Source: Clostridiales bacterium (GTDB lineage Bacteria; Bacillota; Clostridia; Peptostreptococcales; Anaerovoracaceae). Taken from it: a stretch of 64,000 nucleotides of DNA. A model generated the notes under the pieces. It did no database searches. It saw nothing but the letters and a program-made list of their open reading frames with translations, and was not told where the DNA came from. Position numbers and translations under genes: made by a program. Positions within the stretch are counted from its first letter, which is position 1. The number at the start of each line of letters is the position of its first letter. The DNA is taken from the NCBI GenBank assembly GCA_009776955.1, contig WRMW01000002.1, positions 187,154 to 251,153 of the forward strand, given 5' to 3'. Shown piece by piece: positions 33,868 through 37,442 of the stretch.

Positions 33868-33943
33868 GCTGCCCTAACTCAGTCGGTAGAGTACCTCCTT
33901 GGTAAGGAGGAAGTCGGCGGTTCGAGTCCGCTGGGCAGCTCCA
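33868..33943 (+). tRNA. tRNA-Thr (anticodon GGU), CCA encoded
   Basis: Manual cloverleaf: acceptor GCTGCCC/GGGCAGC, D-stem ACTC/GAGT, anticodon stem CCTCC/GGAGG with loop TTGGTAA, T-arm GGCGG-TTCGAGT-CCGCT, 76 nt in total. Confidence 0.9.
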
Positions 33944-33944
33944 T

Positions 33945-33967
33945 AACCCGCGATTGCGGGTTTTGTT
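33945..33967 (+). terminator. Rho-independent terminator after tRNA-Thr
   Basis: AACCCGC-gatt-GCGGGTT followed by TTGTT. Confidence 0.7.
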
Positions 33968-33978
33968 GAATAGAAGAG

Positions 33979-34635
33979 ATGAATATCAATGAGGAAAGCA
34001 CAAGGCTTATCAAGGAGCTAGAAGAAGAACTCTCCGATGACAGGATTGCGGAGATTTTTCGGCTGGACGAAGACAGAGCCGCTCACGTCAGCTCCAGAAA
34101 GGGCAGATTGACAGGCAGAACAGTCGTCAAGCGTCTGATTGTCCTTGCGGTTGTGTTCGTGTGTGTCGTCGTGACGCTTCAGTTTTTCGAGCCTATGGTC
34201 ATTATCGAACCATCCATGCGGGAAGCCATCATGCCGAAAGATTGCATCGTTCTGGCGACGCGAGCATATTCTTTTGGAGATATAGGGTACGGCGACATCG
34301 TAGTGCATGGCTCGGGCATCCAAGACGGGAGCGGAGGGGCTCTGAGTCTATGCGGACGCGTGATTGGGCTTCCTGGGGATGAGGTCGAAATCAGGGATGG
34401 AAGCGTTTTTCGCAATGGCGTACGGCTTTATGAACCCTATGTAATGGAAGGCGTAACAGATGGCAATATGGCTTTGTCGGTGGTGCCGGAGGGGCATTGT
34501 TTTCTGTTGGGGGATGCCCGTCAGAGCAGTGTCGACAGCAGAGACGGCAGGATTGGCTTCGTTCCCGTCGAGGAAATTATGGGGAAAGCGGTTTTCCGCA
34601 TCTTGCCCGTCAGCAAGGCTGGAAGAATTGAATAA
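33979..34635 (+). CDS. Signal peptidase I (S26) homolog lacking the catalytic lysine
   Basis: Single TM segment. The Ser box is PSM and Box E is GDARQSSVDSR. In Box D the expected K-R-[VI]-IGLPGD reads C-G-R-V-I-G-L-P-G-D (codon GGA at 34347-34349). Confidence 0.8.
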   Translation: MNINEESTRLIKELEEELSDDRIAEIFRLDEDRAAHVSSRKGRLTGRTVVKRLIVLAVVFVCVVVTLQFFEPMVIIEPSMREAIMPKDCIVLATRAYSFGDIGYGDIVVHGSGIQDGSGGALSLCGRVIGLPGDEVEIRDGSVFRNGVRLYEPYVMEGVTDGNMALSVVPEGHCFLLGDARQSSVDSRDGRIGFVPVEEIMGKAVFRILPVSKAGRIE

Positions 34636-34644
34636 CGATATTGT

Positions 34645-34673
34645 TTGACATAAGAGCGAAAAAGTAATAGATT
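34645..34673 (+). promoter_or_regulatory. Candidate promoter for the bactofilin operon
   Basis: TTGACA (34645-34650), 17-nt spacer, TAGATT (34668-34673). Confidence 0.45.
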
Positions 34674-34705
34674 ATAGGCGTGAGAGTTTGTCATGTTAAA
34701 ATTGA

Positions 34706-35482
34706 ATGGAGGCTAAGGCTATTGTGATAAATCTAAAAGATTTGCTTCGCAGCGGAAGACCCGAAGAAGGAACCCCTCAGACAGAGGATGTCAGTGTGGA
34801 AAACGTGCCTCCGGAGGGCGAGAGGCTGGTGCCGGATTTCACGGTCGCTGGCGACTACATAGAGGATGTGCATGAGGAGATCGCTGAGCACGCATATGCG
34901 CCAAGCGAAGCTTACACGCCGCCATATGAGCCAGAGCCAGAGCCTGAGGCAGAAGAGCCCGTGAGGGCTGTGACTCAGCCTGCTTGGCAGGGCGACCAAA
35001 GCGATGCCCCTTATGTGGAAGAAAGCGAAGAGGAAATCCCTATGGGAGTCTCCCTTATTTCCAGGGAGGCCACGGTGCTTGGCGATATCATAACGGAAGG
35101 CCATATCGATGTAGTAGGCAAAGTGCGCGGCAATGTGGAAGCAGAAGGCAATGTCGCCGTGCGCGGACTTGTGAGCGGCGATGTCTCGGGCGAGAAAATA
35201 GGGCTTTACCATTGCCGCGTAAAAGGCGACCTTAATGCCGGGACGGGCGTGGTCATAGATTCTGACTCGGTCGTCATCGGCGATGTTGACACGGACAATG
35301 TGGTGCTTGGCGGCAAGCTGAAGGGCGACATTAAAGCGACCAGGATGGCGGTGCTCAGAAGCGATGCCTATTTCATAGGCGATGTTGAGACGGAGTCCAT
35401 TGCTGTCGAATCCGGTGCGGTGGTCAACGGCAATATAAGGACGCTGATACAAGGAGACCTTGAAGCGCCCTTTGACGATTGA
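34706..35482 (+). CDS. Bactofilin-family cytoskeletal protein with a ~110-aa acidic, Pro-rich N-terminal region
   Basis: The C-terminal half is the typical beta-helical repeat pattern (G.I.G.V.G.V.A.G.V...G.V.G...). An alternative GTG start lies at 34724, downstream of a GGAGG. Confidence 0.85.
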   Translation: MEAKAIVINLKDLLRSGRPEEGTPQTEDVSVENVPPEGERLVPDFTVAGDYIEDVHEEIAEHAYAPSEAYTPPYEPEPEPEAEEPVRAVTQPAWQGDQSDAPYVEESEEEIPMGVSLISREATVLGDIITEGHIDVVGKVRGNVEAEGNVAVRGLVSGDVSGEKIGLYHCRVKGDLNAGTGVVIDSDSVVIGDVDTDNVVLGGKLKGDIKATRMAVLRSDAYFIGDVETESIAVESGAVVNGNIRTLIQGDLEAPFDD

Positions 35483-36093
35483 CGTATTACACGAAGACCC
35501 TATCCCAGACTTTTGATACGGATGACTTTATAGCGCCGGACACCCTTTCTGTTGTCAACGGCAGTGTTCGGGCAGCCGCAGAGGACGTGCTTGTGCGTGG
35601 CGGGCTGTCTGAGGAGCTAAACCGAGTATTCAAGACCAAGACATACGACCCTGTTTTATTGAAGGCAGTCGTAAGCGCCGCCGTCCCATCACTTGACCCA
35701 GATGAGTTCATGCACTATGAGGCGCCGGAGGCGCCTGTCATTGCGGACTATGCACCGCCTCCGCCTCTTCCGGCGGAAGCCCCTGCCGATATGGATGTCG
35801 ATGTCGACGCCGGCCTTGAGGCCGGTCTGGATCCTGGCACGGATATCGGAATAGAAGCTGAAATTGAGATTGCGGAAGCGGAAATGCGGGACGATCCCGT
35901 ATTAATGGAGGGAGATATCTCCATAGAATTGCCGCAGATTTCGCGTATCAACAGGGGAATGATGCGGTTGAAGCTGGACACGCTTACATTCGAGAAGGGC
36001 TTTCGGCAGAGTCTGCGCGATATAGGGGCTATTGCGGGTATCTCGATAACAATCATCATACTGGTGTATTATTTGCTCAATCACACTTGGTGA
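35479..36093 (+). CDS. Hypothetical tail-anchored membrane protein with an acidic, Pro-rich middle region
   Basis: The TTG start overlaps the bactofilin stop (TTGA). A single C-terminal TM segment (IAGISITIIILVYYLL) is present. I recognise no family. Confidence 0.55.
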   Translation: MTYYTKTLSQTFDTDDFIAPDTLSVVNGSVRAAAEDVLVRGGLSEELNRVFKTKTYDPVLLKAVVSAAVPSLDPDEFMHYEAPEAPVIADYAPPPPLPAEAPADMDVDVDAGLEAGLDPGTDIGIEAEIEIAEAEMRDDPVLMEGDISIELPQISRINRGMMRLKLDTLTFEKGFRQSLRDIGAIAGISITIIILVYYLLNHTW

Positions 36094-36185: not shown

Positions 36186-37442
36186 ATGTCTAAAATGAAA
36201 GTCTTTTCTTCCTGTGTTTTGGTAATATTGCTGATGGTATGTGCGGTCTTTTTGTTTGAGCTGCATGGATGCACGCCCAGAGTTTCAGTTCCGGATGATG
36301 CGGTAGCCGGAGAGCGGGAGTCTGAAGGGTCTGGCCCTGCGGTTGTGAGCAGGCAGGATTTTCCCCTGCCTATAGTGGAGGAGTGGGTTTTGCCCACCGT
36401 GGTGTCAATCACTGGAGCCGATTCGGAAGCGGGACTCGCGGCTGCTTGGGGTTTTGATTATGGGGTAAAGACCGTCAATGAGCAGGGCGGGATTCGCGAG
36501 CTCCCTGTCAGGATTGCAATTCGTGACGCGGCATCTAGCGAAAACGCAGTCAGAACTGAGATAGGCCAGGCGGCGGCCGACAGCGCATTGATTGTTTTGG
36601 GACCGTCCACCGAGGAGTCATATACGGCTGGGGGACAGACCTTCTATAGTGTCGGGATGCCGGCTCTGGGTGCGGCTACGGATGATATGAGCAGGGACAG
36701 ATATCAGCCTTTTGCTATATCCTGCATTGCTGATCCTGGCAGTGAGGCTGTTTCCGCAATAGAGACTTGGGTGCGTGCCGAGCAATTTACGAGGGTATTT
36801 ATTTTCAATTCCTATATATATGATGACCGAACAAAATTGGCAGAGGAAGCGCTGCTGGCTTCAGGGAAAGAGGTTGCTGAAAGATTTGAGGTTGGGCACG
36901 ATGCGTTTGACGCTGCTAGTGTTGCCGAAAGAGCTATTGCGTCAGGCGCAGACGCCTACTATATCGATATGAGTGGCGAGGATACTTTGCGGATAATAAG
37001 GCAGCTTCATTTTCTTGCGGGCGAGGCTGCAAGCGCCCTGAAAATCCTTTGCGGTCCGCAGGCAGCCGATATGGCTTTGATTGAATCGGCGGAAGACGGG
37101 GAAATGCTAGGCGTACGCGTCTGGGCTACGCTTGACCCGAACAGGGGCGTAGAAAAGCGCAGAGCCTTTGACGAAGCTTTTGAAAGAAGCGTTGGCGATC
37201 TTGCATATTACAGCCTTGCCGTGGACTATTACCAGGCGGCGCTTATGCTTAAAGAGGCTTTTGACGAGCTTAGGCTTACGGGCGCGCCCGAGGAACTTGA
37301 GAGCGAGCGCAGGAAGCTCGCACTGCATCTTTATAATACAGGCTTCATAGCCACTGACCAAGGAGATTTTATTATCGAGGCTGGGAGCAAGTTTACAGCG
37401 GCTAAATTGTATACGATTACGGAAAACGGCTTCCAATCATGA
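36186..37442 (+). CDS. Lipoprotein, type-I periplasmic-binding-protein fold (LivJ/Peripla_BP_6-like substrate-binding protein), orphan
   Basis: Signal peptide with lipobox LHGC. The segment VNEQGGIRELPVRIAIRDAASSENAV resembles branched-chain amino acid SBPs. No permease or ATPase gene is adjacent. Confidence 0.6.
   Translation: MSKMKVFSSCVLVILLMVCAVFLFELHGCTPRVSVPDDAVAGERESEGSGPAVVSRQDFPLPIVEEWVLPTVVSITGADSEAGLAAAWGFDYGVKTVNEQGGIRELPVRIAIRDAASSENAVRTEIGQAAADSALIVLGPSTEESYTAGGQTFYSVGMPALGAATDDMSRDRYQPFAISCIADPGSEAVSAIETWVRAEQFTRVFIFNSYIYDDRTKLAEEALLASGKEVAERFEVGHDAFDAASVAERAIASGADAYYIDMSGEDTLRIIRQLHFLAGEAASALKILCGPQAADMALIESAEDGEMLGVRVWATLDPNRGVEKRRAFDEAFERSVGDLAYYSLAVDYYQAALMLKEAFDELRLTGAPEELESERRKLALHLYNTGFIATDQGDFIIEAGSKFTAAKLYTITENGFQS

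What the first reader, a model, noticed from the sequence alone, without database searches (positions are those of the whole stretch)
33979..36093. Signal-peptidase-I paralog without the catalytic lysine, next to a bactofilin gene translationally coupled to a tail-anchored acidic protein
Gene 33979-34635 has the S26 fold signatures: a TM anchor, the Ser box PSM, Box D RVIGLPGD and Box E GDARQSSVDSR.
- The general-base lysine that precedes the Arg in Box D (K-R-[VI]-IGLPGD; K83 in B. subtilis SipS, K145 in E. coli LepB) is glycine here (LCGRVIGLPGD, GGA at 34347-34349).
- The protein has an unusual ~45-aa acidic cytoplasmic N-terminus.
- 70 nt downstream, behind a TTGACA-N17-TAGATT promoter, lies a bactofilin with a long acidic, Pro-rich N-terminal region.
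- The bactofilin stop overlaps (TTGA) the start of a 204-aa protein that is acidic and Pro-rich and ends in a single C-terminal TM helix. That protein is a plausible membrane tether for the bactofilin polymer.
I recognise neither the pseudo-peptidase nor the tail-anchored partner as a characterised family. Together they could form an envelope-localisation module.
Basis: partly seen in the sequence, partly recalled or inferred. Interest (0 to 1): 0.62.

Follow-up and report, generated by a model that had tools for sequence, protein, structure and literature searches.

The report
Inactive signal-peptidase copy beside bactofilin
An uncultured termite-gut Clostridia bacterium carries a duplicate of its signal peptidase that has lost the catalytic lysine and is encoded next to a cytoskeletal bactofilin gene and a small tail-anchored membrane protein; the three look like a new membrane-attachment set for the bactofilin scaffold, but contact between the parts has not been shown.

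Summary
Gene 33979-34635 is a true S26 signal-peptidase homolog (TIGR02227, 116 bits). It has Gly where 35 of 35 sampled canonical relatives have the general-base Lys. The Gly codon is 34354-34356, not 34347-34349. A canonical SPase I lies elsewhere in the genome.

The gene belongs to a small, fast-evolving clade that arose by duplication of the housekeeping lepB. In 7 of 8 loci where the upstream DNA can be read, a member of this clade sits directly upstream of an orthologous bactofilin gene.

Catalysis is not conserved within the clade:
- Lys is Gly or Arg in most members.
- Two members keep Lys.
- Three members lost Box E.
- In one member the whole S26 domain is gone, leaving only the N-terminal cytoplasmic motif (IRELEEELSDERIAEIF) and the membrane helix.

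The 204-aa ORF is real. It belongs to a family of about 25 sequence clusters, is largely disordered and tail-anchored, and starts in a TTGA stop/start overlap with the bactofilin gene in 9 of 9 loci.

Best reading (about 0.5): the bactofilin scaffold has two membrane partners that dock through their cytoplasmic N-termini, as PbpC and LmdC do. The peptidase fold would then be non-catalytic or vestigial. Binding is inferred, not shown. This is a new variant of known kinds, restricted to termite-gut lineages.

The parts
33868..33943 (+). tRNA-Thr(GGT); context only. It is followed by a terminator-like hairpin at about 33945-33965.
   Evidence: ARAGORN. The hairpin folds at -13 kcal/mol, z = -3.1.
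33979..34635 (+). S26 signal-peptidase-I paralog (218 aa) with Gly in place of the general-base Lys. It is a bitopic N-in membrane protein.
   Evidence: PF10502 100.8 bits and TIGR02227 116.2 bits. AF2 model pLDDT 89. Best Foldseek hits are SpsB, LepB and SipA.
33997..34059 (+). Clade-specific cytoplasmic N-terminal motif (aa 7-27, STRLIKELEEELSDDRIAEIF), predicted to be helical.
   Evidence: Conserved in all 8 clade members whose N-terminus is readable, including the 66-aa remnant. Unique in the own genome. AF2 helices at 3-17 and 20-33.
34114..34185 (+). Transmembrane helix of the S26 paralog (aa 46-69).
   Evidence: AF2 helix 46-69. Kyte-Doolittle maximum 2.7 at residue 49.
34213..34215 (+). 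Ser79 codon (TCC); the nucleophile position is retained.
34354..34356 (+). Gly126 codon (GGA) at the general-base Lys column of Box D.
   Evidence: Lys in 35 of 35 canonical paralogs.
34510..34542 (+). Box E, GDARQSSVDSR (aa 178-188). The canonical Asn180 is Ala.
34645..34673 (+). Sigma-70-type promoter-like site TTGACA-N17-TAGATT in front of the bactofilin gene.
   Evidence: 10 of 12 matches. The same site is conserved in 8 of 8 related loci.
34706..35482 (+). Bactofilin (258 aa from ATG 34706; more likely 252 aa from GTG 34724 behind GGAGG at 34708-34712). It has an N-terminal peptide (M)INLKDLL, an acidic Pro-rich linker, a beta-helix core at about aa 113-250, and a conserved C-terminal GDxEAPFDD.
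   Evidence: PF04519 68.7 bits. Ortholog alignment. Start-codon argument. It is the only bactofilin in the genome.
35479..35482 (+). TTGA stop/start overlap: the TTG start of the tail-anchored gene overlaps the TGA stop of the bactofilin gene.
   Evidence: Identical junction GACGATTGAC in 9 of 9 loci.
35479..36093 (+). Tail-anchored acidic, Pro-rich protein (204 aa). Conserved motifs are TLSQxFDxxDFIAPD plus a helix (aa 7-39), VPSxDPDEFxxYE, and ExPxISRxN..K..DT..F. The C-terminal TM helix spans aa 181-200 (nt 36019-36078).
   Evidence: The profile search finds 25 cluster representatives, 22 of them at E <= 1e-10. Alignment. AF2: mostly disordered, TM pLDDT 97. No Pfam, NCBIfam, PHROG or PDB match.
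36186..37442 (+). Peripla_BP_6 lipoprotein-like gene. It is often, but not always, syntenic downstream of the trio. Membership of the module is uncertain.
   Evidence: PF13458 65 bits. Orthologs follow the tail-anchored gene in L082, L084 and L086, probably also L081, but not in G003, G002, L083 or L085.

Best explanation
This is a lineage-specific three-gene bactofilin module.

Shown:
- A duplicate of the housekeeping signal peptidase I landed upstream of an older bactofilin / tail-anchored-protein gene pair.
- It gained a conserved helical cytoplasmic N-terminal motif.
- It then came under relaxed selection on catalysis. In this genome the general-base Lys is Gly and the Box E Asn is Ala, so the protein cannot work as a Ser/Lys signal peptidase.

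Inferred:
- The bactofilin polymerises on the inner face of the membrane.
- The S26-derived bitopic protein and the disordered tail-anchored protein both dock on it through their cytoplasmic N-terminal segments. This is how the bitopic clients PbpC and LmdC bind BacA.
- The tail-anchored protein is made in step with the bactofilin through the TTGA coupling and acts as its membrane anchor or adaptor.
- The S26-derived protein is a positioned client. Its ectodomain survives as a non-catalytic peptide-binding or scaffolding fold in most lineages and can be lost entirely.
For: Loss of catalysis:
- Gly126 sits at a column that is Lys in 35 of 35 canonical paralogs, and Ala180 at an invariant Asn.
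- No Lys or His is conserved nearby.
- A canonical SPase I lies on C5 in the rluD-lepB-smpB context.

Origin:
- The clade is monophyletic (100/97, and 100/99 with L081 added).
- It nests within the housekeeping lepB of the own and sister genera (99/91) and has long branches.

Linkage:
- An S26-derived gene lies directly upstream of the orthologous bactofilin in 7 of 8 readable loci. The outer flanks all differ: sigH/tRNA, MCP, SNF2 helicase, a membrane protein, a sugar-kinase-like gene.
- Among 30 bactofilin loci of the wider bacterial family, S26 adjacency occurs only in this genus.

What is conserved:
- The N-terminal motif is kept in all members whose N-terminus is readable.
- The active site varies. 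Lys is G, R or K; Ser is Thr once; Box E is lost three times.
- In L082 only the motif plus TM remains (66-74 aa). Against its full-length relative, the 24 motif codons show 10 synonymous and 3 conservative changes (codons counted by hand).

Tail-anchored partner:
- It is a real family.
- The TTGA junction is present in 9 of 9 loci.

Precedent:
- PbpC and LmdC bind bactofilin through N-terminal cytoplasmic peptides, and client anchors can substitute for the bactofilin membrane-targeting sequence (PMC12448750, PMC10945521).
Against: - No physical interaction was tested. A multimer prediction could not be run here.
- Gene order alone can reflect the accident of where the duplicate inserted.
- Most members keep a well-folded, full-length S26 ectodomain with many structural invariants. 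This argues for an extracytoplasmic role that the docking model does not explain.
- The S26 gene and the bactofilin gene have separate expression signals. There is a conserved promoter between them, and the S26 gene starts 14 nt after a tRNA terminator-like hairpin.
- Sister genera have the bactofilin / tail-anchored pair without the S26 gene, so the S26 gene is not needed for the pair to function.
- The 66-aa remnant could be a recent pseudogene.
Confidence: 0.5

Rival explanations
1. SipA-like extracytoplasmic helper. The dead peptidase fold binds a secreted or surface protein, as a chaperone or assembly factor would. Its position next to the bactofilin reflects co-regulation or chance, with no contact with the cytoskeleton.
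For: - The full-length fold is retained with many structural invariants in most members.
- Foldseek matches SipA (4n31) about as well as it matches active SPases.
- SipA also has Gly at the Lys position and is needed for pilus polymerisation without catalysis (PMC4049620).
Against: - No sortase, pilin or evident SPase-I substrate gene lies in the locus. The only sortase is on contig C12.
- The most conserved segment is cytoplasmic, not the ectodomain.
- One lineage dropped the ectodomain but kept the motif plus TM.
- Adjacency to the bactofilin persists while the flanks change.
Confidence: 0.2
2. Decaying duplicate. The copy is a redundant lepB duplicate on its way to loss. Its catalytic decay and its neighbourhood carry no functional meaning.
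For: - Catalytic residues were lost repeatedly and independently.
- Branches are long.
- One lineage has a truncated gene.
- The gene has no promoter-like site of its own here.
- Its taxonomic range is narrow.
Against: - Eight or more lineages that differ by 0.3-1.8 substitutions per site keep open, full-length frames.
- A new N-terminal motif, absent from the housekeeping paralog, is conserved. It evolves mainly by synonymous change.
- 25 of 42 canonical-invariant columns remain invariant or nearly so in the clade.
Confidence: 0.15
3. Still an active, specialised signal peptidase that uses another residue as general base.
For: - Ser79, Gly178, Ser184, Asp186 and Arg188 are retained.
- The close relative L081 keeps the full catalytic set and may be active.
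Against: - There is no Lys or His at or near the base position. His110 is unique to this sequence.
- Relatives carry Gly or Arg at the Lys column, and some have lost Box E.
- A Ser-only S26 mechanism is not known (own knowledge).
Confidence: 0.05

Closest known systems
SipA / LepA of Streptococcus pyogenes (PDB 4n31, 4k8w), an inactive S26 homolog needed for pilus polymerisation
   Same: S26 fold with the catalytic dyad not intact. Gly sits at the position of the general-base Lys (Gly85 in SipA). It coexists with a true SPase I. It is presumed to be a non-catalytic binding protein (PMC4049620).
   Different: - SipA also lacks the Ser (Asp48) and lies in a pilus/sortase islet.
- Here Ser is kept and the neighbours are a bactofilin and a tail-anchored protein.
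- Here the conserved hallmark is a cytoplasmic N-terminal motif.
- This copy arose independently from the local housekeeping lepB.
Bactofilin client modules BacA-PbpC (Caulobacter) and BacA-LmdC (Hyphomonas, Rhodospirillum)
   Same: [quoted passage not shown] For these precedents, binding through the N-terminal tail has been shown (PMC12448750, PMC10945521).
   Different: - The ectodomain here is an S26 peptidase fold without its base, not a PBP or an M23 endopeptidase.
- Binding is untested here.
- The host is a Gram-positive-type Clostridia lineage.
- A second, tail-anchored and disordered partner is translationally coupled to the bactofilin.
- No paper in the searched library links bactofilin with S26 proteins.
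Housekeeping type I signal peptidase (LepB / SipS / SpsB; TIGR02227)
   Same: Sequence and predicted fold, N-in single-TM topology, Ser box, Box D RVIGLPGD and most of Box E.
   Different: The general-base Lys is replaced by Gly and the Box E Asn by Ala. Evolution is accelerated. It carries a specific N-terminal motif. The genome's real SPase I is the C5 paralog.
tapA-sipW-tasA operon of Bacillus subtilis (signal peptidase gene embedded in a fibre operon; own knowledge)
   Same: An S26-family gene is kept beside genes for a polymer-forming protein.
   Different: SipW is an active ER-type (Ser/His) peptidase that processes the exported fibre subunits. Here the polymer (bactofilin) is cytoplasmic and has no signal peptide, and the peptidase copy lacks its base.

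Membership tests
Peptidase S26 / signal peptidase I homology family (PF10502, TIGR02227) | Profile score above the curated cut-off | tested here: met
   PF10502 100.8 bits vs 22.9; TIGR02227 116.2 bits vs 47.
Peptidase S26 / signal peptidase I homology family (PF10502, TIGR02227) | SPase I fold with an N-terminal membrane anchor | tested here: met
   AF2 pLDDT 89, TM helix 46-69. Foldseek best hits are SpsB 4wvi (E 2.7e-8), LepB and SipA.
Catalytically competent SPase I (Ser/Lys dyad enzyme) | Nucleophile Ser in Box B (SM motif) | tested here: met
   Ser79 in PSM.
Catalytically competent SPase I (Ser/Lys dyad enzyme) | General-base Lys in Box D (K-R-[VI]-IGLPGD) | tested here: not met
   Gly126. 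Lys in 35 of 35 canonical paralogs and in the aligned PDB SPases.
Catalytically competent SPase I (Ser/Lys dyad enzyme) | Box E GDNRxxSxDSR intact | tested here: not met
   GDARQSSVDSR. Asn is replaced by Ala at a column that is invariant in canonical paralogs. Ser, Asp and Arg are kept.
Catalytically competent SPase I (Ser/Lys dyad enzyme) | Cleavage of signal peptides | not testable with these tools
   Needs an enzyme assay.
SipA-type inactive S26 pilus assembly factor | S26 fold lacking the Ser/Lys dyad | tested here: inconclusive
   The Lys position is Gly, as in SipA (Gly85), but Ser is retained where SipA has Asp.
SipA-type inactive S26 pilus assembly factor | Location in a pilus/sortase gene cluster | tested here: not met
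   The neighbours are sigH, tRNA-Thr, bactofilin, the tail-anchored protein and a Peripla_BP_6 gene. The only sortase is on contig C12.
Bactofilin (PF04519) | Bactofilin beta-helix domain above the cut-off | tested here: met
   68.7 bits vs 27.9. It is the only copy in the genome.
Bactofilin client of the PbpC/LmdC type | Bitopic membrane protein with a conserved N-terminal cytoplasmic peptide, encoded next to the bactofilin gene | tested here: met
   The motif at aa 7-27 is conserved in all members whose N-terminus is readable. Adjacency in 7 of 8 readable loci.
Bactofilin client of the PbpC/LmdC type | Direct binding of the cytoplasmic tail to bactofilin polymers, and bactofilin-dependent localisation | not testable with these tools
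   Needs BLI or pull-down and microscopy.
Tail-anchored membrane protein | A single TM helix at the extreme C-terminus, no signal peptide, and the bulk of the protein cytoplasmic | tested here: met
   The only hydrophobic segment is at 182-200 of 204 residues. AF2 helix 173-203, pLDDT 97. The same architecture is seen in all 19 aligned relatives.

The most novel reading that the evidence does not exclude
An essential secretion enzyme has been turned into a cytoskeleton adaptor. The duplicated signal peptidase gained a cytoplasmic bactofilin-docking helix. After that, its peptidase domain became dispensable. Natural relatives show each stage of the loss: intact dyad, Lys lost, Box E lost, domain deleted. 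Together with a new family of disordered tail-anchored proteins, it would form a previously undescribed way of fixing a bactofilin sheet to the membrane in Gram-positive-type bacteria.
Probability: 0.35. Interest if true: 0.65.

Novelty: new variant of a known kind. Interest (0 to 1): 0.5.

Why it matters
Little is known about bactofilin partners outside Proteobacteria. The known clients are cell-wall enzymes held by short cytoplasmic tails.

If the docking model holds, this locus would add two things:
- a client built from a signal-peptidase fold;
- a new tail-anchored adaptor family.

It would also give a natural series showing how a duplicated essential enzyme is converted into a structural protein. 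This bears on how pseudoenzymes arise.

The practical reach is limited. The lineage is uncultured, from termite gut, and narrow. The central claim, binding, can nevertheless be tested with peptides and recombinant bactofilin.

Tried and rejected
1. Word-based homolog search with the 204-aa protein found only itself. The exhaustive profile search was needed to find relatives.
2. Pfam, NCBIfam, PHROGs and a PDB profile search gave nothing for the tail-anchored protein. Its AF2 model is too disordered (pLDDT 64) to justify a fold search.
3. The genome-contig scan with the N-terminal motif returned only two MAG loci.
4. Neighbourhood look-ups are limited by very short metagenome contigs. Several MAG contigs break inside or just before the bactofilin gene, so some loci are uninformative (G002, G020, G110, G128, L076, L077, L080).
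5. I searched for a second protein carrying the N-terminal motif in the own genome, as a possible further client. None was found.
6. I looked for RNA or other read evidence. Only one termite-gut DNA run holds a small share of the words and there is no RNA run, so transcription was not examined.
7. I considered His110 as an alternative base and rejected it, because it is not conserved.
8. I considered a general bactofilin-S26 linkage in the bacterial family and rejected it. Only 2 of 30 loci show it, both in the own genus.
9. A literature search for the MAG and sample codes gave nothing useful.
Full report
**What is there.** Window 33979-36093 holds three plus-strand genes.

- Gene 1 (33979-34635, 218 aa) is an S26 signal-peptidase homolog. 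It scores 100.8 bits on PF10502 and 116.2 bits on TIGR02227 (cut-off 47).
- Gene 2 (34706-35482) is a bactofilin, 68.7 bits on PF04519. It is the only bactofilin in the genome.
- Gene 3 (35479-36093, 204 aa) matches nothing in Pfam, NCBIfam, PHROGs or the PDB.
- Upstream lie a sigH-like gene and tRNA-Thr. Downstream lies a Peripla_BP_6 lipoprotein-like gene.
- The genome is a 2.03-Mb, 91%-complete MAG. The closest named relatives are MAGs labelled 'Eubacteriales Family XIII incertae sedis bacterium'. The one public run holding part of the stretch is a termite-gut metagenome.

**The missing lysine is real.** HMMER alignments to solved SPases put LCGRVIGLPGD on YVKRIIGLPGD (4nv4) and on the corresponding segments of 4me8 and SpsB.

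- I aligned the gene with 35 canonical paralogs from about 30 genomes of the same bacterial family. The Ser column and the Box D Lys column are 100% conserved in those paralogs.
- The window protein has Ser79 but Gly126. It also has Ala at the invariant Box E Asn, and Leu at a second conserved Lys four residues upstream.
- The Gly codon is 34354-34356.
- No Lys or His is conserved nearby. His110 is unique to this sequence.
- The AF2 model is confident (pLDDT 89). It shows two short cytoplasmic helices (3-17 and 20-33), a TM helix (46-69) and the S26 beta domain. Foldseek returns SpsB, LepB and the inactive homolog SipA.
- The genome has one other S26 gene, on contig C5. It carries HSM, LIKRVIGLP and GDNRQVSKDSR, and sits between a pseudouridine synthase gene and smpB, the same context as in a sister genus. 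This is the working signal peptidase.

**Origin and evolution of the copy.** A maximum-likelihood tree places the window protein in one clade (100/97) with five metagenome homologs (47-50% identity), one homolog from a same-genus MAG (G003) and one from MAG Po218_bin102.

- This clade nests within the housekeeping lepB of the own and sister genera (99/91) and has long branches. It is therefore a recent duplicate that evolves fast.
- The Lys column in the clade reads G in the window, P0002, P0004, P0006 and L077. It reads R in P0003 and P0005, and K in G003 and L081.
- Ser is Thr in P0002. Box E is destroyed in P0004, P0006 and G003.
- The L081 member sits beside the bactofilin and keeps Ser, Lys and Box E. 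It nests inside the clade (100/99 for the clade, 97/95 for the inner set).
- The base was therefore lost at least twice, since both Gly and Arg occur, and probably three times.
- What all members share is an N-terminal cytoplasmic motif, (E)NTxxIRELEEE(L/F)SDE(R/K)IAExF. The housekeeping paralog lacks it. It occurs nowhere else in the own genome.

**Linkage to the bactofilin.** Wherever the DNA upstream of an orthologous bactofilin can be read, an S26-derived gene is there in 7 of 8 cases.

| Locus | Gene upstream of the bactofilin |
|---|---|
| Window | Lys replaced by Gly |
| G003 | Lys kept, Box E lost |
| L075 | Lys replaced by Gly, Box E lost |
| L079 | Lys replaced by Arg |
| L081 | Ser, Lys and Box E intact |
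| L084 | C-terminal fragment only, Box E intact |
| L082 | Motif plus TM only |
| G063 (sister genus) | None (the exception) |

- The outer flanks differ in every case, which argues against simple inherited synteny.
- Among 30 bactofilin loci from 30 genomes of the wider family, S26 adjacency is seen only in the own genus.
- A TTGACA-N17-TA(T/G)A(A/T)T promoter-like site lies between the S26 gene and the bactofilin gene and is conserved in 8 of 8 loci.
- The S26 gene here starts 14 nt after a terminator-like hairpin behind tRNA-Thr and has no promoter-like site of its own.

**The remnant in L082.** There the gene upstream of the bactofilin encodes only MRIRELEEELSDEKIAEVF..., a basic stretch and one TM helix (66 aa; 74 aa if it starts at an upstream GTG). 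About 250 nt of unalignable DNA then precede the conserved promoter.

- I compared it with its full-length relative from the same sample (L079). The 24 motif codons differ at 13 codons: 10 synonymous and 3 conservative (R/K, L/V, L/I). This is my count from the alignment.
- The pattern fits selection on the cytoplasmic motif plus anchor after loss of the peptidase domain. A very recent pseudogene cannot be excluded.

**The tail-anchored protein is real.** An exhaustive profile search of 1.84 billion representatives finds 25 cluster representatives, 22 of them at E <= 1e-10.

- Nearly all aligned relatives share an N-terminal TLSQxFDxGDFIAPDILxxVDAxVRAAAxDIL segment, a VPSMDPDEFxxYE motif, a variable acidic Pro-rich stretch, a juxtamembrane ExxVEIPxISRxNxxxxKVxxDTxxF motif and a C-terminal TM helix ending ...YYLLxQ.
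- AF2 predicts a mostly disordered chain with a helix at 20-39 and a confident TM helix at 173-203.
- In all 9 loci with a readable junction, the bactofilin ends ...EAPFDD and its TGA overlaps the TTG start of this gene (GACGATTGAC).
- The pair without the S26 gene also occurs in sister genera (G020; a weaker look-alike in G063). The pair is therefore older than the S26 insertion.

**The bactofilin.** It has a conserved N-terminal peptide, a long acidic Pro-rich linker, the beta-helix core and an invariant C-terminal GDxEAPF(D/E)(D/E).

- Its start is probably GTG 34724, 11 nt behind GGAGG. That start is available in every locus, whereas one relative has an in-frame stop upstream of it.
- The mature N-terminus would then be M-I-N-L-K-D-L-L, a candidate membrane-targeting peptide. 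This is inference only.

**How it most likely works.**

Shown:
- The copy cannot be a Ser/Lys peptidase.
- The three genes are a conserved unit.
- The conserved feature of the S26 copy is cytoplasmic.
- The tail-anchored protein is coupled to bactofilin synthesis.

Inferred by analogy:
- Caulobacter PbpC and Hyphomonas/Rhodospirillum LmdC are bitopic proteins that bind BacA polymers through N-terminal cytoplasmic peptides. Overproduced client anchors can replace the bactofilin's own membrane-targeting sequence (PMC12448750, PMC10945521).
- I therefore propose that both membrane proteins dock on the bactofilin polymer. The tail-anchored protein would be a stoichiometric anchor or adaptor. The S26-derived protein would be a positioned client whose ectodomain is now non-catalytic.
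- That most members keep a full, well-conserved fold suggests the ectodomain still binds something outside the membrane. I cannot say what.
- The SipA precedent shows that such dead S26 folds can have essential non-enzymatic roles (PMC4049620). However, there is no pilus or sortase context here.

**Rivals.**
- A purely extracytoplasmic SipA-like helper, unrelated to the bactofilin (0.2).
- A decaying duplicate (0.15). Open full-length frames across deep divergence and the newly gained conserved motif argue against it.
- Residual activity with another base (0.05).
- The idea that the 204-aa ORF is not translated is rejected, given its conserved family and junction.

**Novelty.** Inactive S26 homologs and bactofilin clients with cytoplasmic docking tails are both known kinds. 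No paper in the searched library links bactofilin to S26 proteins. The tail-anchored family has no annotation. I rate this a new variant of known kinds, of moderate interest. It is a neat natural series of enzyme-to-adaptor conversion, but it sits in a narrow uncultured lineage and its central interaction is untested.

Noticed in passing
L025:2033-2596(-), L023:1664-2215(-), L035:919-1446(+), L027:953-1444(-), L027:2005-2517(-), L018:2060-2656(-): A second, independent clade of S26 paralogs with a broken dyad (Ser to Ala or Asn; Lys to Arg, Ala or Gly) sits in tandem arrays with canonical SPase I genes in other genera of the same bacterial family. Dead signal-peptidase copies therefore seem to recur in this group.
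   Followed up: partly
window 34706-34726: The bactofilin start is ambiguous. ATG 34706 has no Shine-Dalgarno sequence. GGAGG at 34708-34712 is followed 11 nt later by GTG 34724, which is the start chosen by gene callers in relatives. It is also the only start possible in L084, which has an in-frame stop upstream.
   Followed up: partly
window 33943-33979: The S26 copy begins 14 nt after a terminator-like hairpin that follows tRNA-Thr (-13 kcal/mol, z = -3.1). No promoter-like site was found for it, so it may be expressed only by read-through from sigH/tRNA-Thr.
   Followed up: no
window 36186-37442; L082:2292-2732, L084:1876-2709, L086:1379-2272: An orthologous Peripla_BP_6 lipoprotein-like gene (signal peptide with an LxGC-type box) follows the tail-anchored gene in several, but not all, related loci. 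It may be a fourth, looser member of the module.
   Followed up: partly
G020:C167, G110:C8, G128:C31, G002:C69, L077 (contig ends): Many MAG contigs end inside or just before the bactofilin gene. The likely cause is that its N-terminal acidic, Pro-rich region is repetitive and variable (568+ aa in G128). This hides upstream neighbours in most assemblies.
   Followed up: no
window 34699-34671 (minus strand): A minus-strand promoter-like site (TTAACA-N17-TATAAT, 11 of 12 matches) overlaps the plus-strand bactofilin leader. No minus-strand gene lies downstream of it, so it is probably a by-product of the AT-rich intergenic region.
   Followed up: no
other genomes (earlier notes e1-2751104, e1-2759834): Earlier AI notes of this scan describe an operon in insect-gut Erysipelotrichaceae made of a membrane-anchored bactofilin, an LRR surface protein and a catalytically intact signal peptidase I. 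If this holds, bactofilin-S26 pairing may have arisen more than once in Bacillota. I did not check it.
   Followed up: no
G003 = JAISJT010000145.1, L036:5477-6073: The same-genus ortholog keeps Lys at the base column. It has a 13-residue deletion just before that column and a destroyed Box E (ISDNQGDDGGAWDP). It has the longest branch of the clade, 1.7-1.8.
   Followed up: partly
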